From a virus (lineage: Duplodnaviria; Heunggongvirae; Uroviricota; Caudoviricetes): a stretch of 28,449 bases of DNA. Made by a program: the position numbers and the translations under genes. The stretch is from IMG/VR virus record IMGVR_UViG_3300030379_000406, one strand, 5' to 3'. The notes below the pieces were generated by a model that was not told the origin of the DNA, searched no databases, and worked only from the letters and a program-made list of their open reading frames with translations. Shown in pieces: positions 4,600 to 25,576 of this stretch (position 1 is its first letter; every line of letters begins with the position of its first letter).

Positions 4600-4615
4600 T
4601 ATCGCGTCCTCAACA

Positions 4616-5722: not shown

Positions 5723-5891
5723 TTTTTGTTCAGCTAAATATAACATCAGTTTTGAAGAGCGGGATGAACTATTAATGGACTATGGTGAGTTACGCGGTGG
5801 AAGTGCTGCTGATGTCGAATCCTAGCGTGATGACTATGAAGCGGGAAAAACTCCGGTCGAAGCATATTGTGATGAGTGGGGCGATGAATGA
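5700..5891 (+). pseudogene. Small ORF with single in-frame TAG (41 codons + TAG + 21 codons)
   Basis: MRKNKVADFCSAKYNISFEERDELLMDYGELRGGSAADVES-stop-RDDYEAGKTPVEAYCDEWGDE; amber codon at 5823-5825; terminal TGA overlaps the ATG of the next ORF (ATGA). Confidence 0.3.
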
Positions 5892-6175: not shown

Positions 6176-6429
6176 ATTAATGGATTAACTATGTCGGTTA
6201 AACGACCAGCCAACTGAAAAAGCGGAAACCTGATTACAGGTTGCCAGATAAGGCAATGAGCTACCTGGCGCGGAACGGACTGATAAGTATGGGGAATGTT
6301 TTACGATGAACCTTTAGACTAAAGAGTTTGTAACGCTATGTAAGTGATTTTTTCTGGTTTAGATATTTATATGTCCGGCCAAATTGAGGTGTGTTTAAAT
6401 GTAATTGCACATTGATTGTAGGAGGAATA

Positions 6430-6609
6430 ATGAAAAACGCATTGCAGTTTTTGTTTGTTGCGTTCTGGTTGTTCGCATCATGTATGCCCATCATCTTCAC
6501 AGCAAGGTATATGGAAAAAGTTGATGTTTTGATATTAATATTTGGATATATAAATGCCCTTTTTTTAGGGGTGTTCATGGCGGTCATGTGCATTGAATAC
6601 TGGCGGTAA
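6430..6609 (+). CDS. Small hydrophobic (two-TM-like) membrane protein, hypothetical
   Basis: 59 aa (MKNALQFLFVAFWLFASCMPIIF...); strong SD GGAGGA 5 nt upstream of ATG 6430. Confidence 0.45.
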   Translation: MKNALQFLFVAFWLFASCMPIIFTARYMEKVDVLILIFGYINALFLGVFMAVMCIEYWR

Positions 6610-6879
6610 ATACAGCGAACTCCATTGGTTTAGTTGGATATTTACTGTGCTGGACAAAAACGGTTTGCGGGGAAATCTTAGTTAAGTAGAATGACTGCGG
6701 GTGCTTGAGGCTATCTGCCTCGGGCATGGACACCAACGGCAGATAGAGAAAAGCCCCAGTTAACATTACGCGTCCTGCAAGACGCTTAACATTAATCTGA
6801 GGCCAATTTCATGCTAGACACATGTAGGTTAGCCTCTTACGTGCCGAAAGGCACGGAGAAGCAGGCTATTGTTAACACC

Positions 6880-8490: not shown

Positions 8491-8693
8491 GTGACTACAG
8501 AAATAGTTGCAATTCATAATTGATCATGGGTTGTCAGTTAAACTCGTGGCGATTTAAATAGACTAATTGGGAGTGCGTCCATTACTTATATCTTGTAATG
8601 TTAACTATCAGAAATGATACAAAGATAATATGTCTTTAAAGAAAAGGCTGATGGCGAAAAGTGGCCCGATGAGGGCCACAATACGGCTGTCAC

Positions 8694-9026
8694 TTAGACG
8701 TAAATATCAATGGTGCCAGCGGTATTTGTATCGTCTTTTTTCTCTTCTTTTTTATCAGGCTGAACTGTCGCGTCTTCATTCTTTTTCTCTGCCTGCTGCC
8801 TTAACAACTGCTCCAGTTGAGCCCAGAGGCTTTCAATTTGCTTCTGTACCAATGCAGCCATTTCTTTTTTCTGCTGTGTCGTCATCCCCTCTTCCGATGA
8901 GATTTTCCCAAGCTTTTCAGTCAGCACCTGAATTTGTCTTGTGATTTTGGCTATTTCTGATGTTCCTTCCGGGGCGGAGTTGTTTGAAATAACGGTTGAG
9001 GTATTTCCCTGAATTGTGACAGACAT
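8694..9026 (-). CDS. flxA: FlxA (FliA-regulated protein of Qin prophage)
   Basis: 110-aa ORF (MSVTIQGNTSTVISNNSAPEG...KKDDTNTAGTIDIYV) recognised from memory as E. coli FlxA; consensus sigma-28 promoter immediately upstream. Confidence 0.85.
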   Translation of the reverse strand: MSVTIQGNTSTVISNNSAPEGTSEIAKITRQIQVLTEKLGKISSEEGMTTQQKKEMAALVQKQIESLWAQLEQLLRQQAEKKNEDATVQPDKKEEKKDDTNTAGTIDIYV

Positions 9027-9049
9027 AGATTTCTCCTTTTAAAAAAGCA

Positions 9050-9076
9050 CTATCGGCATGCACAAAAAAATCTTTA
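9050..9076 (-). promoter_or_regulatory. Sigma-28 (FliA) promoter for flxA
   Basis: On the minus strand: TAAAGATT - 11 nt - GCCGATAG (consensus TAAAGTTT-N11-GCCGATAA), about 25 nt upstream of the flxA ATG. Confidence 0.7.
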
Positions 9077-9228
9077 ATCGTATTTCTTGTGTCATTAATT
9101 GTTTGATGTTCAGATTGTTTTCCTCGCGGGCTGGCGCGCCTCAGAAAGTAAAGCTTGTTGACAGGGGTAAACGTTCGGCAATAATTTTCTGCCGCATGCG
9201 GGTGTTGCATAAAACGTGTTACGTTCCT

Positions 9229-9534
9229 TTATCGACAGGTCAGGTCACCGCTCACCCGCCGACGAGAAAGCAATACTGACATGCTAAAGCAAAAAATAGA
9301 TGAATAAGTTGAGTTGTGCATATGTAGCCTGACCGTCACAAAGTATATGGTGTCTGTACCAGTAAGATGATGGCCGGACTCTTTAAAAACGAGCTGACCT
9401 GCACAATACAGGATGGACTTAGCAATGGCTGCTCCTGGCACAAAGCGGACAGTGATCACCGTTCTTACGACTACTTTCTGACTTCCTTCGTGACTTGCCC
9501 TAAGCATGTTGTAGTGCGATACTTGTAATGACAT
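9229..9534 (-). CDS. ydfV: Hypothetical protein at the ydfV position
   Basis: 101-aa ORF between flxA and relB, divergent from relB; symbol assigned by length and synteny with K-12 Qin, not by sequence recall; coding status uncertain. Confidence 0.35.
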   Translation of the reverse strand: MSLQVSHYNMLRASHEGSQKVVVRTVITVRFVPGAAIAKSILYCAGQLVFKESGHHLTGTDTIYFVTVRLHMHNSTYSSIFCFSMSVLLSRRRVSGDLTCR

Positions 9535-9547
9535 TTGTAATTACAAG
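9495..9547 (+). promoter_or_regulatory. relBE promoter/operator (palindromic RelB-binding repeats)
   Basis: TTGCCC - 17 nt - GATACT followed by the palindrome CTTGTAATGACATTTGTAATTACAAG (9522-9547) just upstream of the relB SD. Confidence 0.65.
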
Positions 9548-9558
9548 AGGTGTAAGAC

Positions 9559-9798
9559 ATGGGTAGCATTAACCTGCGTATTGACGATGAACTTAAAGCG
9601 CGTTCTTACGCCGCGCTTGAAAAAATGGGTGTAACTCCTTCTGAAGCGCTTCGTCTCATGCTCGAGTATATCGCTGACAATGAACGCTTGCCGTTCAAAC
9701 AGACACTCCTGAGTGATGAAGATGCTGAACTTGTGGAGATAGTGAAAGAACGGCTTCGTAATCCTAAGCCAGTACGTGTGACGCTGGATGAACTCTGA
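9559..9798 (+). CDS. relB: RelB antitoxin
   Basis: 79 aa (MGSINLRIDDELKARSYAALEKMGVTPSEALRLMLEYIADNERLPF...), recognised as E. coli RelB; stop overlaps the relE start. Confidence 0.95.
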   Translation: MGSINLRIDDELKARSYAALEKMGVTPSEALRLMLEYIADNERLPFKQTLLSDEDAELVEIVKERLRNPKPVRVTLDEL

Positions 9799-10085
9799 TG
9801 GCGTATTTTCTGGATTTTGACGAGCGGGCACTAAAGGAATGGCGAAAGCTGGGCTCGACGGTACGTGAACAGTTGAAAAAGAAGCTGGTTGAAGTACTTG
9901 AGTCACCCCGGATTGAAGCAAACAAGCTCCGTGGTATGCCTGATTGTTACAAGATTAAGCTCCGGTCTTCAGGCTATCGCCTTGTATACCAGGTTATAGA
10001 CGAGAAAGTTGTCGTTTTCGTGATTTCTGTTGGGAAAAGAGAACGCTCGGAAGTATATAGCGAGGCGGTCAAACGCATTCTCTGA
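9798..10085 (+). CDS. relE: RelE mRNA interferase toxin
   Basis: 95 aa (MAYFLDFDERALKEWRKLGSTVREQLKKKLVEVLESPRIEANKLRGMPDCYKIKLRSSGYRLVYQV...), recognised as E. coli RelE. Confidence 0.95.
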   Translation: MAYFLDFDERALKEWRKLGSTVREQLKKKLVEVLESPRIEANKLRGMPDCYKIKLRSSGYRLVYQVIDEKVVVFVISVGKRERSEVYSEAVKRIL

Positions 10086-10156
10086 ACCAAAGCATGACAT
10101 CTCTGTTTCGCACCGAAGGTGACACTTCTGCTTTGCGTTGACAGGAGAAGCAGGCT

Positions 10157-10312
10157 ATGAAGCAGCAAAAGGCGATGTTAATCGCCCTGATCGTCATCTG
10201 TTTAACCGTCATAGTGACGGCACTGGTAACGAGGAAAGACCTCTGCGAGGTACGAATCCGAACCGGCCAGACGGAGGTCGCTGTCTTCACAGCTTACGAA
10301 CCTGAGGAGTAA
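10157..10312 (+). CDS. hokD: HokD/RelF Hok-family membrane toxin
   Basis: 51-aa ORF (MKQQKAMLIALIVICLTVIVTALVTRKDLCEVRIRTGQTEVAVFTAYEPEE), below the ORF-track length cutoff; found by manual translation. Confidence 0.9.
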   Translation: MKQQKAMLIALIVICLTVIVTALVTRKDLCEVRIRTGQTEVAVFTAYEPEE

Positions 10313-10380
10313 GAGACCCGGCGGGGGAGAAATCCCTCGCCACCTCTGATGTGGCAGGCATCCTCAACGCACCCGCACTT

Positions 10381-10407
10381 AACCCGCTTCGGCGGGTTTT
10401 TGTTTTT
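10381..10407 (+). terminator. Rho-independent terminator after hokD
   Basis: Hairpin ACCCGC-TTCG-GCGGGT followed by TTTTTGTTTTT. Confidence 0.7.
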
Positions 10408-10528
10408 ATTTTCAACGCGTTTGAAGTTCTGGACGGTGCCGGAATAGAATCAAAAATACTTAAGTAGCGCGCAGGGATAAGAGGGATGGTCCCTTAAAGG
10501 GGAGAGCTAATTATCCGGAAGGATTCTG

Positions 10529-10780
10529 ATGATGAACATCGAAGAACTGCGTAAAATTTTTTGTGAAGATGGCCTCTATGCGGTGTGCGTTGAAAATGGA
10601 AATCTTGTTAGTCATTACCGCATTATGTGTTTGCGAAAGAATGGGGCTGCGTTAATTAATTTTGTGGATGCTCGGGTCACGGACGGATTTATCTTGCGCG
10701 AAGGTGAGTTTGTCACTTCATTACAGGCATTGAAAGAGATCGGAATAAAAGCTGGCTTTTCTGCTTTTTCAGGAGAATAA
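10529..10780 (+). CDS. Hypothetical protein (83 aa)
   Basis: Clean ORF with GGAAGGA SD upstream of ATG; no recognisable motif. Confidence 0.45.
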   Translation: MMNIEELRKIFCEDGLYAVCVENGNLVSHYRIMCLRKNGAALINFVDARVTDGFILREGEFVTSLQALKEIGIKAGFSAFSGE

Positions 10781-10846
10781 ACTCATCTACAATCTTGCGC
10801 GGGGCTGAACTCCCGCTGAGTAACACCGTGCCACCGGAGAAAACCG

Positions 10847-11125
10847 ATGGCACGCAACGCAAAATATTACAATTCTGATAATTCGCCCGTTCTTGCCTGC
10901 ACGCACGGGCGGTATTCTCACGCATTCAAGTCTGAATGGTTCCAGCACCCTCCATGCACTGCAGAACAGGCCGAATGGCTGATTCATTCTTACCGCAGGC
11001 GCGGGTTCGAGGTTAAGAAAGCTCTCAGTCTCGACTATCGGCACTGGATAATCTCTGTCAGGCTGCCTTATTCCGAACGCCCACCACGTGCGTCCCGCAC
11101 TTTCCAGCAACGGATCTGGAGGTAA
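10847..11125 (+). CDS. rem: Rem-like prophage protein
   Basis: 92-aa ORF between hokD and the DUF968 gene, matching the rem position in Qin; symbol by synteny and partial recall. Confidence 0.5.
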   Translation: MARNAKYYNSDNSPVLACTHGRYSHAFKSEWFQHPPCTAEQAEWLIHSYRRRGFEVKKALSLDYRHWIISVRLPYSERPPRASRTFQQRIWR

Positions 11126-11126
11126 C

Positions 11127-12176
11127 GTGCGGGTATTACTTAGACCTGTTCTGGTGCCTGAGCTTGGGCTGGTGGTCCTTAAGCCGGGCCGTGAATCCAT
11201 ACAGATATTTCATAATCCTCGAGTGCTGGTGGAACCGGAACCAAAAAGCATGCGTAATCTGCCATCCGGAGTCGTTCCTGCCGTTCGCCAGCCGCTGGCG
11301 GAAGACAAAACATTGCTGCCGTTTTTTAGTAACGAACGGGTGATTCGTGCTGCTGGCGGCGTTGGCGCATTGTCCGACTGGCTATTACGTCATGTTACAT
11401 CCTGCCAGTGGCCTAATGGCGATTACCATCACACTGAAACAGTCATTCACCGTTATGGTACCGGCGCAATGGTGTTGTGCTGGCACTGCGACAACCAACT
11501 GCGTGACCAGACATCGGAATCACTGGAGCTGCTTGCTCAACAAAATCTGACAGCATGGGTGATTGACGTCATCCGTCACGCAATAAGCGGTACGCAGGAG
11601 CGGGAATTATCTTTGGCTGAATTATCCTGGTGGGCGGTCTGCAATCAGGTGGTGGATGCACTACCTGAGGCTGTATCGCGTCGTTCGCTGGGATTACCAG
11701 CGGAAAAAATCTGCTCGGTGTACCGCGAAAGCGACATCGTACCGGGAGAGCAGACCGCCACCAGCATATTGAAACAACGCACAAAAAATCTTGCACCGTT
11801 GCCTTACGCCCACCAGCAACAAAAATCACCACAGGAAAAGACGGTGGTAAGCATCACCGTTGATCCAGAGTCTCCGGAATCTTTCATGAAGCTGCCTAAA
11901 CGTCGCCGCTGGGTTAAGGAGAAATACACACGTTGGGTTAAGACACAGCCGTGTGCTTGCTGCGGTATGCCAGCCGACGATCCGCATCATCTGATTGGTC
12001 ACGGGCAGGGCGGAATGGGAACAAAAGCACATGATCTCTTTGTGTTGCCTTTGTGCAGAAAGCATCACAACGAGCTGCATACGGATACAGTGGCATTTGA
12101 AGATAAGTATGGCTCCCAACTGGAGCTGATATTTCGTTTTATCGATCGCGCGCTGGCAATTGGCGTACTGGCGTAA
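11127..12176 (+). CDS. ydfU: YdfU-like DUF968 protein with C-terminal Cys/His (HNH-like) cluster
   Basis: 349 aa from GTG 11127 (GGAGG 7 nt upstream); C-terminus QPCACCGMPADDPHHLIGHG...LPLCRKHHNELH resembles an HNH/zinc-finger nuclease motif; nin-region position upstream of Q. Confidence 0.7.
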   Translation: MRVLLRPVLVPELGLVVLKPGRESIQIFHNPRVLVEPEPKSMRNLPSGVVPAVRQPLAEDKTLLPFFSNERVIRAAGGVGALSDWLLRHVTSCQWPNGDYHHTETVIHRYGTGAMVLCWHCDNQLRDQTSESLELLAQQNLTAWVIDVIRHAISGTQERELSLAELSWWAVCNQVVDALPEAVSRRSLGLPAEKICSVYRESDIVPGEQTATSILKQRTKNLAPLPYAHQQQKSPQEKTVVSITVDPESPESFMKLPKRRRWVKEKYTRWVKTQPCACCGMPADDPHHLIGHGQGGMGTKAHDLFVLPLCRKHHNELHTDTVAFEDKYGSQLELIFRFIDRALAIGVLA

Positions 12177-12189
12177 GTGGAGAACGAGC

Positions 12190-12942
12190 ATGAACCTTGA
12201 AGCCTTACCAAAATATTACTCCCCAAAATCTCCAAAATTGAGCGATGACGCTCCAGCGACAGGCACCGGTTGTTTAACAATTACGGATGTAATGGCAGCG
12301 CAGGGGATGGTGCAGTCGAAAGCACCACTTGGGTTGGCCTTATTTCTGGCAAAAGTTGGTGTTCAGGACCCTCAGTTTGCGATTGAAGGCCTGCTAAATT
12401 ACGCGATGGCACTGGATAACCCGACATTGAACAAATTGAGTGAAGAAATCCGGTTACAGATTATTCCTTACCTCGTGAGTTTTGCCTTTGCTGATTACTC
12501 CAGGTCTGCGGCAAGTAAGGCTCGCTGTGAGCATTGTTCAGGTACGGGATTTTATAATGTATTGCGCGAAGTGGTGAAACACTACAGACGCGGGGAATCT
12601 GTAATCAAGGAAGAATGGGTGAAGGAACTATGTCAGCATTGCCATGGTAAGGGCGAAGCCAGCACAGCGTGCAGAGGGTGTAAGGGTAAAGGGATTGTTC
12701 TGGATGAAAAAAGAACCCGGTTTCATGGCGTACCGGTATATAAGATTTGTGGGCGTTGTAATGGAAACCGGTTTAGTCGTTTACCGACCACGCTGGCACG
12801 ACGTCATGTCCAGAAGCTGGTACCAGACCTGACCGATTATCAGTGGTATAAGGGGTATGCGGACGTCATTGGTAAACTGGTAACAAAGTGCTGGCAGGAA
12901 GAAGCATACGCGGAAGCGCAATTGAGGAAGGTGACGAGATAA
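12190..12942 (+). CDS. quuQ: Late-gene antiterminator Q
   Basis: 250 aa from MNLEALPKYY; four CxxC pairs (CEHCSGTG, CQHCHGKG, CRGCKGKG, CGRCNG); immediately followed by a promoter and short-transcript terminator, as in lambdoid Q-pR'-tR' units. Confidence 0.8.
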   Translation: MNLEALPKYYSPKSPKLSDDAPATGTGCLTITDVMAAQGMVQSKAPLGLALFLAKVGVQDPQFAIEGLLNYAMALDNPTLNKLSEEIRLQIIPYLVSFAFADYSRSAASKARCEHCSGTGFYNVLREVVKHYRRGESVIKEEWVKELCQHCHGKGEASTACRGCKGKGIVLDEKRTRFHGVPVYKICGRCNGNRFSRLPTTLARRHVQKLVPDLTDYQWYKGYADVIGKLVTKCWQEEAYAEAQLRKVTR

Positions 12943-12973
12943 ATGATTTTTGCTGAAGATGGCGACATGATGT

Positions 12974-13002
12974 TTGCATTTTTCAAAAAATATGGATAAA
13001 AT
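12974..13002 (+). promoter_or_regulatory. Candidate late promoter pR'
   Basis: TTGCAT - 17 nt - TAAAAT just downstream of Q. Confidence 0.5.
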
Positions 13003-13047
13003 TTTTTCAACGATGGGCTTTGTATACCCGACGTTAAGAAAAAGTAG

Positions 13048-13079
13048 AAAACCCGCTGATGAGCGGGTTTTGTGCTTTA
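13048..13079 (+). terminator. tR'-like rho-independent terminator
   Basis: AAACCCGC-TGATGA-GCGGGTTT followed by a T-rich run, about 45 nt downstream of the candidate pR' -10. Confidence 0.7.
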
Positions 13080-13363
13080 AATGGGGCAATGGTAATGTTG
13101 AATCTCATCCCGGGACTCATGTCTGTTAACTTATTATTTAGCTGGTGACTTGGTTATTTGCCTGATGTTTAAAATGTTTTCTTCCAGTACAATGTCCCTA
13201 AACACAATGAGTCTGCTTATTATATTATTAGCAGAGCTATTACGGCCAAAGTACAGCATAAGCTTTTAAAGCCAATCAACCAGTCATCAAGACAGACGGG
13301 GTTATTCATAAAAACTCTCCATGTGTGATCCGATGGGGCCTGAAATTAAAGCTTTAATATAGC

Positions 13364-13576
13364 TCATGAAAGGTAAACATTGGCAGCTGAAGGGCCACGC
13401 AGACCATTTATCCGGCAAAATTCCACGCGTAATCCGGTGGTAATTTCTTCTGCATCGCGGAGATTGAGCGCTGAAACATGAAGCTGGACATCGATACGAC
13501 CATCGGATGGGGTGATAAGACCCTTGCCGCTTTTGCCGTCAAAGGTTTTGACAATTCCTGTCATTTTACGGGACAA
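13364..13576 (-). CDS. cspF: Cold-shock protein family member (CspF/CspH subfamily)
   Basis: 70 aa ([27 protein letters not shown]...[16 protein letters not shown]); symbol by synteny (adjacent to cspB); I cannot distinguish CspF from CspH by recall. Confidence 0.8.
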
Positions 13577-13876
13577 AAAAATTCCTTAATACTGATAACT
13601 TGGCGCACTATACACACGTTCCTGAAGAAAGCTATAGTTTTTTGATGGGGTTGAAGATGGCTGGATGTCTAAAATAAACATTGCTTCATATGTTCAACTA
13701 TGCGTTAATGATTGCGTCGGTTTGAAGAACAGACGATATACGAAGTAGTTTACTAAAGCAGTTCTCATTTCAGGTGTTATTCACTTATTCCTTCTTTGAG
13801 TCTCTCCAATTAAGTACGAAGTCGTTTCTGTTATGCAAACCATTTATGCCGAAAGGCTCAAGTTAAGGAATGTAGA

Positions 13877-14092
13877 ATGTCAAATAAAATGACTGGTTTA
13901 GTAAAATGGTTTAACGCTGATAAAGGTTTCGGCTTTATTTCTCCTGTTGATGGTAGTAAAGATGTGTTTGTGCATTTTTCTGCGATTCAGAATGATAATT
14001 ATCGAACCTTATTTGAAGGTCAAAAGGTTACCTTCTCTATAGAGAGTGGTGCTAAAGGTCCTGCAGCAGCAAATGTCATCATTACTGATTAA
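13877..14092 (+). CDS. cspB: Cold-shock protein CspB
   Basis: 71 aa ([71 protein letters not shown]); long 5' UTR typical of csp genes. Confidence 0.95.
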
Positions 14093-14374
14093 AATTCATC
14101 GCTCGTCTGTATACGATAACGAAGAAGGCTGATGCCTGAGTAGAGATACGGACAGAGTAGTGAATATTGGATCTCTTTAATAAAAAGTAAGGAGGTCCAA
14201 TACATGAAACAATGGCTAGCATATTTGGCAAAATCTTAATCAGGAAAAGTATGCTAACCATTGTGGTGAAGTGCAGGTTTGCTGCATGAATAGTTTTACA
14301 GCAGAAGCTAACTGCTGGCATGGCAAAACAAAGTGCGTAAGTGGATGACTCCCACAAAAAGCACCACAATCTCA

Positions 14375-14397
14375 AACCCGCTCAGGCGGGTTTTTTA
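14375..14397. terminator. Rho-independent terminator after cspB (possibly bidirectional)
   Basis: Hairpin CCCGC-TCAG-GCGGG flanked by an A-run upstream and a T-run downstream. Confidence 0.65.
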
Positions 14398-14455
14398 TTA
14401 TCTGCTTTAAATATATTATTAAAATATAAAAAATACTTGTTACTAATAAAATCAA

Positions 14456-14626
14456 TCAGGCTACAGCTTTAAGATTTGTCTGGAATACTTTGTTGCAATG
14501 AGGGCAGATCAAAAGGGCACCTTTTTGTACTCTTGAAAAACTGTGTTCTGACTCTTGGGTGCAGTTTGGGCAGGAACATTTAACGAGATAATTACGGCGT
14601 GATTTTGAGTTTTTACGTTCTGACAT
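14456..14626 (-). CDS. Small zinc-ribbon protein (hypothetical)
   Basis: About 56 aa from the internal Met (MSERKNSKSRRNYLVKCSCPNCTQESEHSFSRVQKGALLICPHCNKVF); two CxxC pairs. Confidence 0.3.
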   Translation of the reverse strand: MSERKNSKSRRNYLVKCSCPNCTQESEHSFSRVQKGALLICPHCNKVFQTNLKAVA

Positions 14627-14845
14627 AGGCTTTTCCTGTATAAATGGCCGTATACAGTACACTAAATATGAAAACATTTCTCGTATTATTATTTTATATA
14701 TGACTTTCTTTCAAAATAATTACCCACATTTTTAATGTGTATGTTTTTTTAGCGCCGTTGAGAACAACTTGTGCTGTCAAAACTACCCCGTAGACTCCGA
14801 TCTTTTCAAACATATTGCACCATCCGTGTACATCGGGGTGAGGAT

Positions 14846-15061
14846 ATGAAATCAATGGATAAGTTAACAACAGGTGTTGCCTATGGCACATCGGCGGGTA
14901 ATGCTGGTTTCTGGGCATTGCAGTTACTCGATAAAGTAACTCCGTCACAGTGGGCTGCAATCGGTGTGCTGGGTAGCCTGGTTTTTGGCCTGCTGACGTA
15001 TCTGACAAATCTTTATTTCAAGATTAAAGAAGACAGGCGTAAGGCTGCGAGAGGAGAGTAA
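14846..15061 (+). CDS. essQ: Holin, phage-21 S-type pinholin with dual start
   Basis: 71 aa, [29 protein letters not shown]...; Met1-Lys-Ser-Met4 dual-start motif; two TM segments. Confidence 0.85.
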
Positions 15062-15065
15062 TCCA

Positions 15066-15373
15066 ATGACTCAAGACTATGAACTGGTTGTGAAAGGAGT
15101 CCGTAATTTTGAGAATAAAGTTACGGTAACTGTAGCCTTACAGGACAAAGAACGCTTTGACGGTGAAATTTTTGACCTGGATGTCGCCATGGACCGTGTT
15201 GAAGGAGCTGCGCTGGAGTTTTATGAGGCAGCAGCCAGAAGGAGCGTCCGGCAAGTCTTCCTGGAAGTAGCAGAAAAATTGTCAGAAAAAGTTGAGTCTT
15301 ATCTGCAGCATCAGTACTCCTTTAAGATTGAAAATCCTGCCAATAAGCACGAGCGTCCTCATCATAAATATCT

Positions 15374-15377
<4 letters not shown>
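15066..15377 (+). CDS. ydfR: YdfR-like protein inside the lysis cassette
   Basis: 103-aa ORF between holin and endolysin; AGGAGAG SD; stop overlaps the endolysin start. Confidence 0.7.
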
Positions 15378-16401
<1,024 letters not shown>

Positions 16402-16762
16402 GGTAATATTAAATCGGAACATTTACATCGCGGAATGTAAAATTTAAATAAAAAGGACTCTTCCATGAGCCAAAATTCCTGAAATCTTAAGGGTAAGATA
16501 AAAGGTCTTAATCAGAATGACACGCTTTATTAATAAATAAAGCTATTCTTTCATTGCTGTGTTTTTCTTTACAAAAGTAATCCTTGCTATGGGTGGTTAA
16601 TCATGCGTTAATGGTGTTCTGGTTTGTTACAAATTTATCTGAAGCAGTCATTGTTATAATTTTATTATTTGTACCTCTTGAGATTTCCTTGTTGGTTTTT
16701 CTCTCTGATATTTTTTTCGGACCATTCTGCCCAAGGGCTAATTTCTTCAAAAGGTAATAATT

Positions 16763-16975
16763 ATGTCTAACAAAATGACTGGTTTAGTGAAATGGTTTAA
16801 CCCTGAAAAAGGTTTTGGTTTCATCACGCCGAAAGATGGCAGCAAAGATGTGTTTGTCCATTTCTCAGCAATTCAGAGCAACGATTTCAAAACATTAACT
16901 GAGAATCAGGAAGTTGAATTTGGTATTGAGAACGGACCTAAAGGTCCTGCCGCTGTTCATGTAGTGGCGCTTTGA
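16763..16975 (+). CDS. cspI: Cold-shock protein CspI
   Basis: 70 aa ([70 protein letters not shown]). Confidence 0.95.
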
Positions 16976-17645
16976 GGTAGACAATATTACAAACCATATT
17001 CACTTTAGATGCCCGTGTTGTCATGGTTCCCAGTATAGAACATCATCTTTTGATGTTTCTGACATGAATCCTTTCGGGGCAAAATGTATCTTTTGTAAAT
17101 CAATGATGATTACATTTGATAATATTTCACAATACTTAAATGCCAGCCGTCTGTCGTTGGATTTAAAAAAGTGAAAATGAAGGCTCCTTCGGGAGCTTTT
17201 TTGCTTGGTGTCTATTCGATGGATACTCACATACTACGGTAACATCATGAAAAAAATCATAGTTTTTTTTAACTCTGAACCAGCAGTGGTAGTGCCAGCG
17301 ATGACTGGAGTTAACACCATCATGCGTGAATATCCAAATGGCGAAAAAACACACCTTACTGTAATGGCCGCAGGGTTTCCATCTCTGACCGGAGATCATA
17401 AAGTCATTTATGTAGCCGCGGATCGACATGTTACTTCAGAAGAAATTCTGGAAGCAGCAATAAGGCTCTTGAGTTGATTTGATGCTATTGCATTGATAAT
17501 TCAGGAAAATTCTCTTTGTCTGTTTGTGTAAAATTTAGACTATCGTATGTTGATTATTGCGATGTTTCATCTTATCTTTTACACGTTTGCACCATATAAT
17601 CGACTTACTGTGTAACTGGAAAGTCATAACAGACTAAAAGAGGAA

Positions 17646-18675: not shown

Positions 18676-18874
18676 GAGGTTGTCCCGTATTCAGTGTCGC
18701 TGATTTGTATTGTCTGAAGTTGTTTTTACGTTAAGTTGATGCAGATCAATTAATACGATACCTGCGTCATAATTGATTATTTGACGTGGTTTGATGGCGT
18801 AGATGCACGTTGTGACATGTAGATGATAATTATTATCATTTTGCGGGTCCTTTCCGGCGATCCGACAGGTTACG

Positions 18875-18886
18875 GGGCGGCGACCT
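18875..18886 (+). other. Lambda-type cos site: cosN 12-nt cohesive end (GGGCGGCGACCT), with cosQ/cosB-like flanks spanning about 18780-19060
   Basis: Near-identity, by recall, to the lambda genome ends (...CCGACAGGTTACG | GGGCGGCGACCTCGCGGGTTTTCGCTATTTATGAAAATTTTCCGG...). Confidence 0.85.
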
Positions 18887-19063
18887 CGCGGGTTTTCGCT
18901 ATTTATGAAAATTTTCCGGTTTAAGGTGTTTCCGTTCTTCTTCGTCGTAACTTAATGTTTTTATTTAAAATACCCCCTGAAAAGAAAGGAAACGACAGGT
19001 GCTGAAAGCGAGCTTTTTGGCCTCTGTCGTTTCCTTTCTCTGTTTTTGTCCGTGGAATGAGCA

Positions 19064-19198
19064 ATGGAAGTCAACAAAAAGCAGCTGGCTGACATTTTCG
19101 GTGCGAGTATCCGTACCATTCAGAACTGGCAGGAACAGGGAATGCCCGTTCTGCGAGGCGGTGGCAAGGGTAATGAGGTGCTTTATGACTCTGCGTGA
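19064..19198 (+). pseudogene. nohQ: Terminase small subunit Nu1, N-terminal 44 codons only
   Basis: [44 protein letters not shown] then TGA at the deletion junction; matches the lambda Nu1 N-terminus by recall. Confidence 0.85.
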
Positions 19199-20871
19199 GT
19201 ATCCGTGAGAACGACGACGGCACGTATGCCATCACTGCCGTGCAGCATGTACCGGAGAAAGAGGCCATCGTGGATAACGGGGCGCACTTTGACGGCGACC
19301 AGAGCGGCACGGTGAATGGTGTCACGCCGCCAGCGGTGCAGCACCTGACTGCCGAAGTCACCGCAGACAGCGGGGAGTATCAGGTGCTGGCACGCTGGGA
19401 TACGCCGAAGGTGGTGAAGGGCGTGAGCTTTATGCTTCGCCTGACCGTGGTAGCGGATGACGGCAGTGAGCGGCTGGTCAGCACGGCCCGGACGACGGAA
19501 ACCACATACCGCTTCACGCAACTGGCGCTGGGGCGTTACATGCTGACGGTCCGGGCGGTAAATGCGTGGGGGCTGCAGGGCGATCCGGCATCGGTATCGT
19601 TCCGGATTGCCGCACCGGCAGCGCCGTCTCGGATTGAGCTGACACCGGGCTATTTTCAGATAACCGCCACGCCACATCTTGCGGTTTATGACCCGACGGT
19701 ACAGTTTGAGTTCTGGTTCTCGGAAAAACGGATTGCGGATATCAGGCAGGTTGAAACCACAGCCCGCTATCTTGGCACGGCGCTGTACTGGATAGCTGCC
19801 AGTATCAATATCAGGCCGGGCCATGATTATTATTTTTACGTTCGCAGTGTGAACACCGTTGGCAAATCGGCATTCGTGGAGGCTGTTGGTCGGGCGAGCG
19901 ATGATGCGGAAGGTTACCTGGATTTTTTCAAAGGCCAGATAACCGAATCCCATCTTGGCAAGGAGCTGCTGGAAAAAGTCGAGCTGACGGAGGATAACGC
20001 CAGCAAACTGGAGGAGTTTTCGAAAGAGTGGAAGGACGCCAGTGATAAGTGGAATGCCATGTGGGGCGTCAAAATTGAGCAGACCAAAGACGGCAAACAT
20101 TATGTCGCGGGTATTGGCCTCAGCATGGAGGACACGGAGGAAGGCAAACTGAGCCAGTTCCTGGTTGCCGCTAACCGTATCGCGTTTATTGATCCGTCTA
20201 ATGGCAACACAAGACCAATGTTTGTTGGTCAGGGCGATCAGATATTCATGAACGACGTGTTCCTGAAACGCCTGACGGCTCCGACCATTACCAGCGGCGG
20301 TAATCCTCCGGCATTTTCCCTGACACCGGATGGGCGGCTGACGGCGAAAAATGCCGATATCAGCGGTAACGTGAATGCGAACTCCGGGACGCTCAACAAC
20401 GTCACGATTAACGAGAACTGTCGGGTTCTGGGAAAACTGTCCGCGAACCAGATTGAAGGCGATCTCGTTAAAACAGTGGGCAAAGCTTTCCCCCGGGACT
20501 CCCGTGCACCGGAACGGTGGCCATCAGGGACCATTACCGTCAGGGTTTATGACGATCAGCCGTTTGACCGGCAGATTGTTATTCCTGCGGTGGCATTCAG
20601 CGGCGCTAAACATGAGAGAGAGCATACTGATATTTACTCCTCATGCCGTCTGATAGTGCGGAAAAACGGTGCTGAAATTTATAACCGTACCGCGCTGGAT
20701 AATACGCTGATTTACAGTGGCGTTATTGATATGCCTGCCGGTCACGGTCACATGACGCTGGAGTTTTCGGTGTCAGCATGGCTGGTAAATGACTGGTATC
20801 CCACAGCAAGTATCAGCGATTTGCTGGTTGTGGTGATGAAGAAAGCCACCGCAGGCATCAGTATCAGCTGA
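19195..20871 (+). pseudogene. J: Tail tip protein J, C-terminal ~558 aa fragment
   Basis: Translation ([33 protein letters not shown]...) is co-linear with the C-terminal half of lambda J as I recall it; the N-terminal half is absent; GTG at 19195 is the first possible start and lies in a different frame from nu1'. Confidence 0.85.
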
Positions 20872-20938: not shown

Positions 20939-21538
20939 ATGCGTAAAGTTTGTGCAGCCATTTTGTCCGCAGCCATTTGTCTGGCCGTATCCGGTGCGCC
21001 TGCATGGGCGTCTGAACATCAGTCCACGCTGAGCGCGGGGTATCTTCATGCCTCGACGAACGTCCCCGGCAGTGATGATCTGAACGGGATTAACGTGAAA
21101 TACCGTTATGAGTTTACGGACACACTGGGGCTGGTGACGTCATTCAGCTATGCAGGAGACAAGAATCGCCAGCTGACCCGTTACAGCGATACCCGCTGGC
21201 ATGAAGATTCCGTTCGTAACCGCTGGTTCAGCGTAATGGCGGGGCCGTCTGTGCGCGTGAATGAATGGTTCAGCGCGTATGCGATGGCGGGTGTAGCTTA
21301 CAGCCGTGTGTCGACTTTCTCCGGGGATTATCTTCGCGTAACTGACAACAAGGGGAAAAAGCACGATGTGCTGACCGGAAGTGATGACGGTCGCCACAGC
21401 AACACGTCTCTGGCGTGGGGGGCTGGCGTGCAGTTTAACCCGACCGAATCCGTGGCCATTGATATTGCTTATGAAGGCTCCGGCAGTGGTGACTGGCGCA
21501 CTGACGGTTTCATCGTGGGTGTCGGTTATAAATTCTGA
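20939..21538 (+). CDS. lom: Lom outer-membrane protein (Ail/Lom family)
   Basis: 199 aa with signal peptide (MRKVCAAILSAAICLAVSGAPAWA) and beta-barrel-like alternating pattern ending in a C-terminal aromatic (GVGYKF). Confidence 0.9.
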   Translation: MRKVCAAILSAAICLAVSGAPAWASEHQSTLSAGYLHASTNVPGSDDLNGINVKYRYEFTDTLGLVTSFSYAGDKNRQLTRYSDTRWHEDSVRNRWFSVMAGPSVRVNEWFSAYAMAGVAYSRVSTFSGDYLRVTDNKGKKHDVLTGSDDGRHSNTSLAWGAGVQFNPTESVAIDIAYEGSGSGDWRTDGFIVGVGYKF

Positions 21539-21596: not shown

Positions 21597-24500
21597 GTGA
21601 ATATGGCAGTAAAGATTTCAGGTGTACTGAAAGACGGCACAGGAAAACCGGTACAGAACTGCACAATCCAGCTGAAAGCAAAACGTAACAGCACCACGGT
21701 GGTGGTGAACACGCTGGCCTCAGAAAATCCGGATGAAGCCGGGCGTTACAGCATGGACGTTGAGTACGGGCAGTACAGCGTTATTCTGTTGGTGGAGGGA
21801 TTCCCGCCGTCACATGCCGGGACCATCACCGTGTATGAAGATTCCCGACCCGGTACGCTGAATGATTTTCTCGGTGCCATGACGGAGGATGATGCCCGTC
21901 CTGAGGCACTGCGCCGTTTTGAACTGATGGTGGAAGAGGTGGCGCGTAACGCGTCCGCGGTGGCACAGAACACGGCAGCCGCGAAGAAGTCAGCCAGCGA
22001 TGCCAGCACATCAGCCCGTGAGGCGGCAACCCATGCGACTGATGCTGCAGGCTCAGCACGCGCAGCCAGCACGTCAGCCGGACAGGCCGCGTCGTCGGCT
22101 CAGTCAGCATCTTCCAGCGCAGGAACGGCATCAACAAAGGCCAGTGAAGCATCGAAAAGTGCTGCTGCTGCAGAGTCCTCAAAAAGCGCGGCAGCTACCA
22201 GTGCCGCTGCGGCGAAAACGTCAGAAACGAATGCGGCAGCGTCACAACAATCAGCAGCCACTTCTGCATCCGCCGCGACCACGAAGGCGTCAGAAGCAGC
22301 CACCTCAGCCCGGGATGCGGCGGCCTCAAAAGAGGCAGCGAAATCATCAGAAACGAACGCATCATCAAGCGCCAGTAGTGCCGCTTCCTCGGCAACGGCG
22401 GCAGGCAATTCCGCGAAGGCGGCAAAGACGTCTGAGACAAACGCCAGGTCTTCTGAAACGGCAGCGGGACAGAGCGCCTCGGCTGCGGCAGGCTCAAAAA
22501 CAGCGGCTGCGTCGTCTGCCAGTGCCGCGTCAACAAGTGCCGGGCAGGCCTCAGCCAGTGCCACCGCCGCCGGAAAATCGGCAGAAAGTGCCGCATCGTC
22601 TGCTTCAACAGCCACAACGAAGGCTGGCGAAGCCACTGAACAGGCCAGCGCAGCAGCGAGGTCTGCTTCCGCAGCGAAGACATCCGAGACGAACGCGAAA
22701 GCGTCGGAAACCAGCGCAGAATCCTCAAAAACGGCTGCCGCATCGTCAGCCAGTTCGGCGGCGTCATCGGCATCATCTGCGTCTGCTTCAAAAGATGAGG
22801 CGACCAGACAAGCGTCAGCAGCGAAGGGCAGCGCCACGACGGCATCCACGAAGGCGACAGAGGCTGCTGGCAGTGCGACGGCGGCAGCACAGAGCAAAAG
22901 TACGGCAGAATCCGCGGCAACGCGCGCCGAGACAGCGGCAAAACGGGCAGAGGATATTGCATCCGCCGTGGCGCTTGAGGATGCAAGTACGACGAAAAAG
23001 GGGATAGTACAGCTCAGCAGTGCGACCAACAGTACGTCTGAAACGCTGGCGGCAACGCCAAAGGCAGTAAAATCAGCCTATGACAATGCAGAGAAACGTC
23101 TGCAGAAAGACCAGAACGGCGCTGATATACCCGATAAGGGACGCTTCCTGAACAACATTAACGCGGTCAGTAAAACAGACTTTGCTGATAAGCGTGGTAT
23201 GCGTTATGTGCGGGTTAACGCTCCTGCAGGTGCAACATCTGGAAAATATTACCCTGTTGTTGTTATGCGTTCTGCTGGCTCAGTAAGCGAACTGGCATCA
23301 AGGGTCATTATCACCACGGCAACGCGAACCGCAGGCGATCCGATGAATAACTGCGAGTTTAACGGATTTGTTATGCCTGGTGGCTGGACTGACAGGGGGC
23401 GTTATGCTTATGGAATGTTCTGGCAATATCAAAACAATGAACGAGCCATCCACTCAATAATGATGAGTAATAAGGGCGATGATTTGCGCTCTGTGTTCTA
23501 TGTTGATGGCGCTGCTTTCCCTGTTTTTGCGTTTATCGAAGATGGCCTGTCAATATCCGCACCTGGTGCTGATCTCGTTGTTAATGATACGACCTATAAG
23601 TTTGGGGCAACAAATCCGGCGACTGAATGTATCGCGGCGGACGTTATCCTTGATTTTAAGAGTGGGCGTGGTTTTTATGAGTCTCATTCGTTAATCGTTA
23701 ACGATAACTTGTCGTGCAAAAAACTTTTTGCCACAGACGAAATTGTAGCGCGTGGTGGTAATCAGATTCGAATGATAGGTGGGGAGTATGGGGCATTATG
23801 GCGTAATGATGGCGCTAAAACTTACCTGCTGCTTACCAATCAAGGTGATGTTTATGGTGGCTGGAATACATTAAGACCGTTTGCTATTGATAACGCAACC
23901 GGCGAACTGGTTATTGGAACCAAACTGTCCGCAAGTCTGAACGGTAATGCATTAACAGCAACAAAGCTGCAAACGCCAAGACTGGTTTCTGGTGTTGAGT
24001 TTGATGGTTCCAAAGATATTACTTTAACCGCCGCGCATGTGGCTGCTTTTGCCAGAAGGGCAACGGATACATATGCCGATGCGGATGGTGGCGTTCCCTG
24101 GAATGCCGAATCAGGCGCTTACAATGTCACCCGCTCTGGCGACAGCTATATTCTGGTTAACTTCTATACCGGAGTCGGAAGTTGCCGGACCCTGCAGATG
24201 AAGGCGCATTACAGAAATGGTGGTCTGTTCTACCGTTCTTCAAGAGATGGCTATGGTTTTGAGGAAGACTGGGCAGAAGTTTATACCTCGAAAAATCTTC
24301 CACCAGAAAGCTACCCAGTCGGCGCACCAATCCCGTGGCCATCAGATACCGTTCCGTCTGGTTATGCCCTGATGCAGGGGCAGACTTTTGACAAATCTGC
24401 CTACCCGAAACTTGCTGCCGCTTATCCGTCAGGCGTGATCCCTGATTTGCGTGGCTGGACGATTAAGGGCAAGCCCGCCAGTGGTCGTGCCGTATTGTCT

Positions 24501-25001
24501 CAGGAACAGGATGGCATTAAATCGCATACCCACAGCGCCAGCGCATCCAGTACGGATTTGGGGACGAAAACCACATCGTCGTTTGATTACGGCACTAAAT
24601 CCACGAATAACACTGGTGCGCATACCCATAGTTTAAGTGGCAGCACGAATGCAGCTGGTAATCACAGCCATAGAGATGGCCGTCGATTTAACCCCAGTGT
24701 TCTTAAAGATACTTATCAATATGGTTATACAAGCTCAGGTCAAAATACCTGGGGTGTACAAGGCTCAGTAGGTATGTCTACGGGGTGGTTAGCGAATACC
24801 AGTACAGATGGTAATCATAGCCATTCACTGTCCGGCACAGCAGCATCTGCAGGTGCACACGCGCATACTGTCGGTATTGGTGCTCATACGCACTCCGTTG
24901 CGATTGGTTCACATGGACACACCATCACCGTTAACGCTGCTGGTAACGCGGAAAACACCGTCAAAAACATCGCATTTAACTATATTGTGAGGCTTGCATA
25001 A
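21597..25001 (+). CDS. stf: Side tail fiber protein Stf
   Basis: 1134 aa; N-terminus [26 protein letters not shown] (lambda Stf-like; true start may be the Met at 21603); long Ala/Ser/Thr-rich repeat tract; C-terminal region with repeated HxH motifs ([45 protein letters not shown]). Confidence 0.9.
21950..22960 (+). repeat. Low-complexity GC-rich coding repeat (Ala/Ser/Thr-rich units) inside stf
   Basis: Reiterated SASAA/TSETNA-type peptide units; the same tract produces three long spurious ORFs in other frames and on the minus strand. Confidence 0.6.
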
Positions 25002-25576
25002 TGGCATTCAGAATGAGTGAACAACCACGGACCATAAAAATTTATAATCTGCTGGCCGGAACTAATGAATTTATTGGTGAAGGTGACGCATATATTCCGC
25101 CTCATACAGGTCTGCCAGCAAACAGTACCGATATTGCACCACCAGATATTCCTGCTGGCTTTGTGGCTGTTTTCAACAGTGATAAGGCATCGTGGCATCT
25201 CGATGAAGACCATCGGGGTAAAACGGTTTATGACGTAGCGTCAGGGGACGCGTTATTTATTTCTGAACTCGGTCCGTTACCGGAAAATGTTACCTGGTTA
25301 TCGCCGGAAGGGGAGTTTCAGAAGTGGAACGGCACAGCCTGGGTGAAAGATGCAGAAGCAGAAAAACTGTTCCGGATCCGAGAGGCGGAAGAAACAAAAA
25401 ACAGCCTGATGCAGGTAGCCAGTGAGCATATTGCGCCACTTCAGGATGCTGTAGATCTGGAAATCGCAACGGAGGAAGAAACCTCATTGCTGGAAGCCTG
25501 GAAAAAGTATCGGGTGTTGCTGAACCGTGTTGATACGTCAACTGCACAGGATATTGAATGGCCAGCACTGCCGTAG
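25001..25576 (+). CDS. tfa: Tail fiber assembly protein Tfa
   Basis: 191 aa ([51 protein letters not shown]...); start overlaps the stf stop (TAATG). Confidence 0.9.

What the first reader, a model, noticed from the sequence alone, without database searches (positions are those of the whole stretch)
18860..19210. Deletion joining cos/Nu1 (44 codons) directly to the C-terminal half of J
Sequence up to 19194 is lambda-like cos plus the Nu1 N-terminus; from 19195 it is the C-terminal half of tail tip protein J. The rest of nu1, A, all head and tail genes and the N-terminal half of J (about 17 kb in lambda) are missing. Nu1 ends at a TGA at the junction and the J remnant is in a different frame with only a GTG start and a distant SD. 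The prophage cannot produce virions, yet keeps an intact cos site and an intact lom-stf-tfa module downstream.
Basis: partly seen in the sequence, partly recalled or inferred. Interest (0 to 1): 0.55.

Follow-up and report, generated by a model that had tools for sequence, protein, structure and literature searches.

The report
Deletion scar in Qin cryptic prophage
A 16.9 kb deletion removed all head genes and most tail genes from a lambda-like prophage of E. coli, leaving the DNA-packaging site joined directly to the back half of the tail-tip gene; this is an ordinary step in prophage decay.

Summary
The window is a whole Qin-type lambdoid prophage of E. coli at the ydfJ site, about 27.5 kb.

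- **Left of the junction:** sequence up to 19194 is lambda cos (cosQ, cosN, R3/R2/R1) plus nu1 codons 1-44.
- **Right of the junction:** from 19195 it is J codon 574 to the stop codon, followed by complete lom, stf and tfa.
- **The join:** it lies in a 4-nt microhomology (CTGC, 19191-19194) with no inserted bases. It removes 16,903 bp in lambda coordinates (321-17223).
- **Undeleted relatives:** full-length prophages at the same chromosomal site match each flank at 99.4-99.75%. This is therefore a lineage-specific deletion.
- **Distribution:** the exact junction occurs in 5 of 5,426 complete E. coli genomes. At least ten other Nu1-to-J, L or stf junction classes exist in Qin and DLP12, including K-12 and BL21.
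- **Mechanism:** short-homology illegitimate recombination during prophage erosion.
- **Consequences:** the element cannot build virions. A second cos would be needed for packaging by a helper, and I judge it too short for a lambda head. I found no evidence that the J remnant is expressed or under selection.

It is a new structural allele of a known cryptic prophage, and of low interest.

The parts
18845..18851 (+). cosQ heptamer GGGTCCT, 23 bp upstream of the cohesive-end sequence
   Evidence: Exact motif located. It sits at the same position as the identical heptamer at lambda 48473-48479. The definition of cosQ is from my own knowledge of lambda.
18875..18886 (+). cosN 12-nt cohesive-end sequence GGGCGGCGACCT (corresponds to lambda bases 1-12)
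   Evidence: Identical to lambda 1-12.
18928..19042 (+). cosB with the three Nu1-binding R elements: R3 18928-18944, R2 18979-18998 (inverted), R1 19024-19042
   Evidence: All three R-element cores are identical to lambda 54-70, 105-124 and 151-169. R2 and R1 appear as inverted repeat I2. The four substitutions and one 1-bp deletion relative to lambda all lie outside these cores.
19064..19198 (+). Nu1' remnant: terminase small subunit codons 1-44 plus a TGA stop created by the junction
   Evidence: Pfam Phage_Nu1, profile positions 1-44 of 164, E=4e-24. Translation. Annotated as 'terminase small subunit, incomplete' in the sibling genome.
19191..19194 (.). Deletion junction: 4-nt microhomology CTGC shared by nu1 (lambda 317-320) and J (lambda 17220-17223)
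   Evidence: Three-way alignments with lambda and with a full-length prophage at the same site. No inserted bases. The chance of 4 nt or more of microhomology at a random join is about 0.016.
19195..20871 (+). J' remnant: tail-tip protein J residues 574 to the end (558 aa), comprising two Ig-like domains, the tail-tip fibre domain and the C-terminal receptor-binding domain. The N-terminal half of J is lost.
   Evidence: Pfam Ig_J 37-141, Ig_J_second 143-245, Phage_Tail_Tip 272-399, Ig_GpJ_C 428-558. It differs at 7 nt (5 synonymous and 2 non-synonymous codon changes) from the full-length J of strain MSB1_9D. Annotated as a pseudogene missing its N-terminus.
20939..21538 (+). lom, complete (199 aa)
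   Evidence: Pfam Ail_Lom 1-199 of 199. DNA identical to lom of the full-length MSB1_9D prophage, and the same protein accession appears.
21597..25001 (+). stf side tail fibre gene, complete (1134 aa)
   Evidence: Pfam phage_tail_N, Gp34_trimer and Collar. Colinear with the stf genes of the deposited phage genomes 2H10, PhiR34_1 and Kati.
25001..25576 (+). tfaQ tail fibre assembly gene, complete (191 aa)
   Evidence: Pfam Caudo_TAP. Same protein accession as in the MSB1_9D prophage.

Best explanation
This is a deletion scar in a Qin-type lambdoid prophage integrated at ydfJ.

**How it formed.** A parent prophage carried the usual lambda order cos-nu1-A-...-J-lom-stf-tfa. It lost 16.9 kb by RecA-independent, short-homology (illegitimate) recombination between a CTGC in nu1 codons 43-44 and a CTGC just before J codon 574. 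Whether this was replication slippage or microhomology-mediated end joining cannot be told from the sequence. The join is shown. That it was a single step is inferred.

**What it did.** The element lost the large terminase subunit, all head genes, all tail shaft and tip-assembly genes, and the N-terminal half of J. It therefore cannot make particles. cos survives only because the left breakpoint fell 320 bp to its right. J'-lom-stf-tfa survives because the right breakpoint fell inside J.

**What the remnants are.** The 44-aa Nu1 fragment and the J' open frame are by-products of the join, not designed products.

**What remains plausible as activity (inferred).**
1. Homologous exchange with infecting lambdoid phages through the cos-nu1' arm and the J'-lom-stf-tfa arm, as shown experimentally for K-12 DLP12, Qin and Rac.
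2. Expression of lom as an independent gene.
For: - **Junction.** Base-exact junction with 4-nt microhomology and no filler.
- **Identity of the element.** The window is the Qin prophage by site and gene content.
- **Undeleted relatives at the same site.** In N18-04097 the left flank is 99.75% identical over 9.8 kb and continues into nohA, A, portal and so on through J. In MSB1_9D the right flank is 99.4% identical over 7.1 kb and is preceded by a full J.
- **Rarity.** The exact junction occurs in only 5 of 5,426 complete genomes.
- **Recurrence of the process.** At least ten other junction classes exist in Qin and DLP12, with 2-12 nt overlaps. Several carry further internal deletions, and one retains a stranded 174-bp piece of gene L.
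- **A second example in the same window.** A 3.6-kb deletion with short imperfect homology lies at 4673-4684.
- **Little divergence since the event.** J' differs from a full-length J at only 7 of 1,677 nt.
- **Literature.** Qin size varies from 11 to 97 kb among 189 strains (PMC6379469). Lambda recombines with the DLP12 cos-nu1 region and with Qin and Rac stf-tfa (PMC3945230).
Against: - No single genome in the collection carries both flanks in undeleted form. The closest full-length relatives are mosaic: one has a different J C-terminus and the other a different head module. So a join between two different molecules, or more than one step, cannot be excluded.
- Breakpoints in related prophages are clustered rather than evenly spread. 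This could point to a hotspot or to selection, although the way the loci were found biases toward nearby junctions.
- The open frames of J', lom, stf and tfa are all intact. That is what selection would also produce, although so little divergence has accumulated that intactness carries no weight.
Confidence: 0.9

Rival explanations
1. Domesticated module. The deletion was retained because it yields a useful product set: a soluble J fragment (Ig-like domains, fibre and receptor-binding domain) translated by termination-reinitiation at the overlapping Nu1' stop and J' start (GTGA), acting together with Lom, Stf and Tfa as receptor blockers or adhesins.
For: - The Nu1' stop TGA overlaps the J' GTG.
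- J' begins 36 residues before the first complete Ig-like domain and retains every distal domain.
- All four downstream frames are intact.
- A tail-fibre chimera from another E. coli cryptic prophage blocks phage T2 adsorption (PMC12529663).
- Six right-hand breakpoints in related prophages fall within about 110 bp just upstream of the same domain boundary.
Against: - The overlap is an accident of the native J sequence (C GTG AGT).
- The GTG has no usable Shine-Dalgarno; GAGG lies 16 nt upstream.
- No promoter-like site lies between cos and J' apart from one upstream of cos, and counts do not exceed the shuffled expectation.
- J' differs from a full-length J at only 7 nt, so intactness does not indicate selection.
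- Sister variants truncate or delete J' in many different ways.
- The junction is confined to five genomes.
- The breakpoint clustering is partly an ascertainment effect of how the search joins matching pieces.
Confidence: 0.06
2. Helper-dependent mobile element. cos is kept so that a co-resident or infecting lambdoid phage can package the element, or the adjacent chromosome, in the manner of a cosmid or a cos-type satellite.
For: - cos is 99.7% identical over 395 nt to the cos of two deposited phage genomes (PhiR29_1, PhiR29_2), and all its sub-sites are unchanged.
- Integrase and excisionase frames are intact.
- DLP12 cos-nu1 is functional when recombined into lambda (PMC3945230).
Against: - The element is about 27.5 kb in the window and about 31 kb in the sibling genome. 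From my own knowledge, this is far below the roughly 38-51 kb that lambda heads accept, and a dimer is too long.
- cos-type terminases need a second cos to finish, and uncut DNA blocks tail joining (PMC6687093).
- In the window the immunity and adjacent early region is itself deleted, and several early genes are pseudogenes.
- The gene content is that of a decayed lambdoid phage with its own Q and lysis genes. It lacks the compact layout I would expect of a satellite; that expectation is from my own knowledge and no satellite comparison was run.
- cos retention needs no selection, since the deletion simply stopped 320 bp short of it.
Confidence: 0.04
3. Same scar, different history. The present junction is the last of several nested deletions that consumed an older Nu1-J junction, or it arose by illegitimate joining of two different lambdoid genomes (resident prophage and incoming phage) rather than by one intramolecular deletion.
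For: - The two best full-length relatives each match only one flank, and each is mosaic.
- Related prophages show multi-step histories, with stranded islands of L or J between deletions.
- Identical nu1 endpoints pair with different J endpoints, in both Qin and DLP12.
Against: - Both flanks are exactly colinear with the lambda gene order and orientation.
- No remnant of an older junction or any filler is present.
- A single event is the most economical reading.
Confidence: 0.2
4. Assembly or sequencing artefact: a collapsed or mis-joined contig.
For: None beyond the abruptness of the junction.
Against: The identical junction occurs in five independently assembled complete genomes from human faeces, slaughterhouse, pork and sewage isolates. 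NCBI's annotation of those genomes calls the same two adjacent truncated genes.
Confidence: 0.01

Closest known systems
Qin (Kim) cryptic prophage of E. coli K-12 MG1655, nohA-stfQ region
   Same: Same chromosomal site (ydfJ) and the same flanking genes: ydfO, ynfO, cos, nohA/nu1, tfaQ, pinQ, ydfK. In both, cos and nu1 are joined to tail-fibre genes by loss of the morphogenesis block.
   Different: K-12 keeps nu1 to about lambda 719 (189-aa NohA) and joins it to the distal part of stf, so J and lom are gone. The window keeps only 44 nu1 codons but retains J', lom and a full stf. Neither junction can derive from the other. The window also keeps intact int and xis, whereas K-12 intQ is a pseudogene.
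DLP12 cryptic prophage variants (BL21(DE3), F1005/AH21, PCP07083, ECCWS199)
   Same: A lambda-type cos-nu1 is joined to a J remnant, with short overlaps at the join. The J endpoints at 17174, 17192 and 17206 lie close to the window's 17224.
   Different: Different prophage and different integration site. The nu1 endpoints differ (293 or about 699-707). Some carry extra internal deletions, and PCP07083 has an in-frame Nu1-J fusion.
Full-length lambdoid prophages at ydfJ (strains N18-04097, MSB1_9D) and deposited phage genomes PhiR29_1, 2H10, PhiR34_1, Kati
   Same: The flanks are 99.4-99.75% identical to the resident prophages. Identity to the deposited phage genomes is 99.0-99.7% for cos-nu1' and 96-97.5% for J'-tfa. 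Gene order is identical on both sides of the gap.
   Different: They carry the roughly 17 kb nu1-to-J block that the window lacks.
cos-type phage satellites (PICIs) and cosmids
   Same: All carry a cos site without the genes needed to build a capsid.
   Different: From my own knowledge, satellites are compact and carry their own regulation, replication and helper-exploitation genes, and cosmids are sized to fit a head. No comparison with a satellite was run here. This element is a 27-31 kb decayed lambdoid prophage that I judge too short for a lambda head.

Membership tests
Qin cryptic lambdoid prophage of E. coli | Integrated between rspB and a 5'-truncated ydfJ | tested here: met
   In the sibling genome the integrase lies next to rspB and the right end abuts ydfJ'. 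The window starts at int (20-1315) and ends in ydfJ'. K-12 has the same layout.
Qin cryptic lambdoid prophage of E. coli | Characteristic gene set: dicB, relBE, hokD, ydfU, ydfT (Q), cspB/F/I, essQ-rrrQ-rzpQ, ydfO, ynfO, tfaQ, pinQ, ydfK | tested here: met
   All are annotated in the sibling genome over the stretch colinear with the window. The dicA, dicC, ydfABC and DicF segment is missing from the window.
Lambda-type cos site | 12-nt cohesive-end sequence GGGCGGCGACCT within cosN | tested here: met
   Exact match at 18875-18886.
Lambda-type cos site | cosQ upstream, and cosB with R3, R2 and R1 downstream, ahead of nu1 | tested here: met
   Exact matches to the lambda elements at 18845-18851, 18928-18944, 18979-18998 and 19024-19042.
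Lambda-type cos site | Cleaved and used for packaging by a lambda-type terminase | not testable with these tools
   Only indirect support: 99.7% identity over 395 nt to two deposited phage genomes, and DLP12 cos-nu1 works in lambda (PMC3945230).
Short-homology (illegitimate) deletion | Both flanks colinear and co-oriented with one contiguous parent, a few bases of identity at the join, and no inserted DNA or mobile element at the junction | tested here: met
   4-nt CTGC overlap and no filler, against lambda and against a full-length prophage at the same site. No insertion sequence is annotated at the junction.
cos-type phage satellite (PICI-like) | Compact island with its own replication and helper-interference module and no phage lysis or late-regulation genes; packaged size compatible with helper capsids. 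This definition is from my own knowledge. | tested here: not met
   The element is 27-31 kb and carries lambdoid Q, holin, lysozyme and Rz genes plus many accessory genes of non-phage type (relBE, hokD, the csp genes). Full-length phage relatives sit at the same site. No comparison with a known satellite was run.
Domesticated tail-derived particle (tailocin) | Retained set of tail tube, tape measure and tip or baseplate genes able to assemble a particle | tested here: not met
   Only J' (distal half), stf and tfa remain. Genes Z through I and the N-terminal half of J are deleted.

The most novel reading that the evidence does not exclude
The junction is not inert. Two readings remain open. In the first, the overlapping Nu1' stop and J' start (GTGA) couples translation, so that late or read-through transcription yields a free receptor-binding J fragment, or a 44-aa Nu1 helix-turn-helix peptide that binds cosB. 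Either product could interfere with infecting lambdoid phages, through receptor masking or as a packaging decoy. In the second, the clustering of independent breakpoints just upstream of J's first Ig-like domain in Qin and DLP12 reflects repeated selection for such a fragment.
Probability: 0.04. Interest if true: 0.45.

Novelty: new member of a known kind. Interest (0 to 1): 0.14.

Why it matters
On its own it matters little. It documents one more structural allele of the Qin cryptic prophage and a clean example of microhomology-mediated loss of the virion-gene block.

Its modest value is comparative:
- Undeleted relatives sit at the same locus, and about ten differently broken relatives are known, so Qin and DLP12 offer a natural series for studying how prophages erode.
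- That series could show whether deletion endpoints are random.
- It could also show how much intact receptor-binding and tail-fibre sequence cryptic prophages keep available for recombination with infecting lambdoid phages.

Tried and rejected
1. **Assembly artefact.** Rejected: five independent complete genomes share the junction.
2. **IS-mediated deletion.** Rejected: no insertion sequence or filler lies at the join.
3. **Deletion through the 17-nt imperfect repeat** (14 of 17 identical, with an exact 10-mer GAGTATCCGT) shared by nu1 nt 35-51 and J at the break. Rejected: both copies are still present, 92 nt apart, so the repeat was not the crossover point.
4. **Satellite or cosmid-like element.** Rejected on size and gene content, and on the need for a second cos (PMC6687093).
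5. **Promoter or terminator signals explaining J' expression.** Nothing exceeded the shuffled expectation.
6. **A real breakpoint hotspot.** Could not be tested fairly. The similarity search only joins pieces lying close together, so the sample is biased toward junctions near this one. Left as unexplained.
7. **My own mapping error.** I first assumed the window was colinear with NZ_CP080070 throughout and mis-mapped window positions below 4673. An unexpected int/xis ORF pair exposed this, and BLAST corrected it. Coordinates around the finding were unaffected.
8. **Tool handling.** I also believed most fetched loci were missing from the script machine. They were grouped several per file.
9. **DicF search.** Rfam at two thresholds, a pattern search and an alignment all found nothing. 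This is explained by the 3.6-kb deletion at 4673-4684.
Full report
**What the window is.** The 28,449-bp window is an entire lambdoid prophage of Escherichia coli lying between rspB and a truncated ydfJ. This is the site and gene set of the Qin cryptic prophage.
- It opens with an intact integrase (20-1315, minus strand) and excisionase (1335-1586).
- It continues through the exonuclease gene, ydfD, dicB, relBE, hokD, ydfU, the Q-type antiterminator ydfT, cspF/B, essD-ydfR-rrrQ-rzpQ, cspI, gnsB, ydfO and ynfO.
- It then runs through cos, the feature under study, lom, stf, tfaQ, pinQ and ydfK, and ends in ydfJ'. This map comes from the annotation of the near-identical genome NZ_CP080070, BLAST colinearity and the K-12 reference.

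**Observation check.**
- Window 18875-19194 aligns with lambda 1-320, with four substitutions and one 1-bp deletion.
- Window 19191 onward aligns with lambda J from 17220.
- The two homologies overlap in CTGC (19191-19194), and there are no extra bases.
- Against 50,697 phage records, no record covers the junction. Matches stop at query 795 (Nu1 side) or start at 792 (J side).
- Nu1' is exactly the first 44 native residues, then TGA at 19196-19198.
- The J remnant begins at GTG 19195, which is J Val574 in the native frame, and runs 558 aa to the native stop.
- The frames differ. The J frame is closed two codons upstream by a stop at 19186-19188, and the nearest GAGG lies 16 nt before the GTG.
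- The loss is lambda 321-17223, or 16,903 bp.

**Anatomy of what is left.**
- cos is complete at sequence level: cosQ GGGTCCT (18845-18851), the 12-nt cohesive-end sequence (18875-18886), and R3, R2 and R1 (18928-18944, 18979-18998, 19024-19042). All are identical to lambda.
- The 395 nt from 18800 to 19194 are 99.7% identical to the deposited phage genomes PhiR29_1 and PhiR29_2. They differ at one base in 320 from a full-length prophage at the same site.
- Nu1' covers Pfam Phage_Nu1 positions 1-44 of 164.
- J' contains Ig_J, Ig_J_second, Phage_Tail_Tip and the C-terminal receptor-binding domain, so the N-terminal half of J is what was lost.
- Lom is complete (199 of 199 profile positions). 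Stf (1134 aa) and Tfa (191 aa) are full length.
- The J'-to-tfa block is colinear with the deposited phage genomes 2H10, PhiR34_1 and Kati.

**Parent forms and mechanism.** Undeleted relatives exist at the same chromosomal locus.
- In strain N18-04097 the left flank is 99.75% identical over 9.8 kb. It continues into a complete nohA, large terminase, portal, protease, decoration and capsid genes, all tail genes and a full J. Aligned to it, the junction is again ...GACTCTGC|CGCC... joined to ...CCGCTGC|GTGAGT..., a loss of 16,904 bp.
- In strain MSB1_9D the right flank is 99.4% identical over 7.1 kb and is preceded by a full-length J. Its Lom, TfaQ and PinQ proteins carry the same accessions.
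- J' differs from the MSB1_9D J at 7 of 1,677 nt: 5 synonymous and 2 non-synonymous codon changes.

Three features together are the signature of RecA-independent short-homology deletion: a 4-nt overlap, which has a chance expectation of about 0.016 for 4 nt or more; no filler; and colinear, co-oriented flanks. Whether the cause was slippage or end joining cannot be told from sequence. Neither full-length relative matches both flanks, because each is mosaic elsewhere. A single intramolecular step is therefore the economical inference, not a demonstrated fact.

**Distribution and context.** The exact junction is present in 5 of 5,426 complete E. coli genomes. The same region is broken differently in many others. 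Coordinates below are lambda coordinates.

| Prophage | Strain or class | Junction |
|---|---|---|
| Qin | B-1109 | nu1 293 to J 17118 |
| Qin | PK6 class | nu1 427 to J 16347 |
| Qin | LZHX12 | nu1 347 to a stranded 174-bp piece of L, then to J 17536 |
| Qin | LR-58-1 class | nu1 700 to J 17225 |
| Qin | K-12 | nu1 719 to stf |
| DLP12 | BL21 | nu1 699 to J 16135-16307, then to J 17174 |
| DLP12 | F1005/AH21 | nu1 699 to J 16486 |
| DLP12 | PCP07083 | nu1 about 700-707 to J 17192, an in-frame fusion |
| DLP12 | ECCWS199 | nu1 293 to J 17206 |

- Overlaps at these joins are 2-12 nt.
- Several of these variants have further J-to-stf or J-to-lom deletions.
- The window itself carries a second short-homology deletion of 3,567 bp at 4673-4684. 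It removes ydfC, ydfB, ydfA, dicA, dicC and neighbouring genes relative to its sibling genome.
- Published work already reports Qin sizes from 11 to 97 kb among 189 strains (PMC6379469).

The finding is thus one step in a well-known erosion process.

**Consequences.**
- *Shown:* the large terminase gene, all head genes, tail genes Z through I and the N-terminal half of J are absent, and no replacements lie nearby.
- *Inferred:* the element cannot form particles on its own.
- *Packaging by a helper is unlikely.* cos-type terminases need a second cos to finish, and uncut DNA blocks tail attachment (PMC6687093). The element is about 27.5 kb here and about 31 kb in the sibling genome. By my own knowledge of lambda packaging limits, roughly 38-51 kb, a monomer is too short and a dimer too long.
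- *The most plausible residual role is as a recombination substrate.* Lambda exchanges DNA with the K-12 DLP12 cos-nu1 region at high frequency, stimulated by cos cutting, and with Qin and Rac stf-tfa (PMC3945230). Here both a cos-nu1' arm and a 6.4-kb J'-lom-stf-tfa arm are available.
- *The J' frame is probably silent.* It has no usable Shine-Dalgarno, no promoter signal above background, and NCBI annotates it as a pseudogene. The stop/start overlap GTGA could in principle allow reinitiation after Nu1', but it arises from the native J sequence and is most simply a coincidence.

**Rivals.**
- *Domesticated J fragment.* This is not excluded but has no positive support. Sequence divergence is too low for intactness to mean anything, sister variants destroy J' in various ways, and the allele is rare.
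- *Satellite-like element.* This fails on size and gene content, and on the need for a second cos.
- *Artefact.* This is excluded by five independent assemblies.

**An unresolved oddity.** Endpoints in the related prophages are clustered.
- Four classes end in nu1 at about 699-707 with four different partners.
- Two classes in two different prophages end at nu1 293.
- Six right ends lie in J 17118-17225, just before the first Ig-like domain.

Part of this is ascertainment, because the search joins only nearby pieces. Part may reflect serial erosion of older junctions or gene conversion between co-resident prophages. I could not test this properly.

**Verdict.** This is a new structural allele of a known cryptic prophage, formed by an ordinary microhomology deletion. 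Interest is low.

Noticed in passing
window 4673-4684: A second deletion scar. The window lacks 3,567 bp that the sibling genome NZ_CP080070 has between dicB and the DUF977 gene. The missing stretch holds ydfC, ydfB, ydfA, dicA, dicC, a ydaT-like gene and a hypothetical gene. The join lies in an imperfect 8-nt homology (CCGGATAC versus CCGGCTAC). No DicF sRNA was found in the window. The same junction occurs in strains MB19 and 20AR0354, which do not carry the Nu1-J junction, so no complete genome in the collection has both.
   Followed up: partly
loci L006-L011, L013-L015 (junctions next to nu1): Breakpoints of the morphogenesis-gene deletions in Qin and DLP12 variants are clustered. The nu1 end falls at about 699-707 in four classes, each with a different right end. 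It falls at nu1 293 in one Qin and one DLP12 variant. Six right ends lie within J 17118-17225. This may be partly ascertainment and is otherwise unexplained.
   Followed up: partly
L009 5950-8247 (strain PCP07083, DLP12): Here the Nu1-J deletion is in frame and is annotated as a single intact 765-aa protein. It fuses about 170 Nu1 residues to the distal part of J.
   Followed up: no
window 19098-19114 and 19190-19206: nu1 nt 35-51 and the J sequence at the break share a 17-nt imperfect direct repeat: 14 of 17 identical, with an exact 10-mer GAGTATCCGT. Both copies persist, so the repeat was not the crossover site.
   Followed up: yes
L016/L017 (N18-04097) and L018 (MSB1_9D): Full-length prophages occupy the Qin site in some strains. 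One has a lambda-type head and terminase module. The other has a DUF1441 small-terminase-position gene and a ClpP-like protease/major capsid fusion module, yet the same J C-terminus, lom, stf, tfaQ and pinQ end as the window. This is clear module mosaicism at one locus.
   Followed up: partly
window 6699-6870 (+): Rfam sok antitoxin RNA hit (104 bits), in a stretch where the sibling genome has no annotated hok gene. It lies upstream of a partial ISNCY transposase and is separate from hokD further along.
   Followed up: no
window 25344-25542 (+): Full-length match to Rfam family IS009 (227 bits), lying inside the tfaQ coding sequence.
   Followed up: no
window 21950-23050: The central part of stf encodes an Ala/Ser/Thr-rich repeat region with 21- to 252-nt periodic repeats. 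It stays open in several other frames, giving spurious ORFs of 263-335 aa.
   Followed up: no
window 20-1586 (-): The integrase (431-aa ORF) and excisionase (83 aa) frames are intact, unlike the intQ pseudogene of K-12 Qin. This copy may still be able to excise.
   Followed up: no
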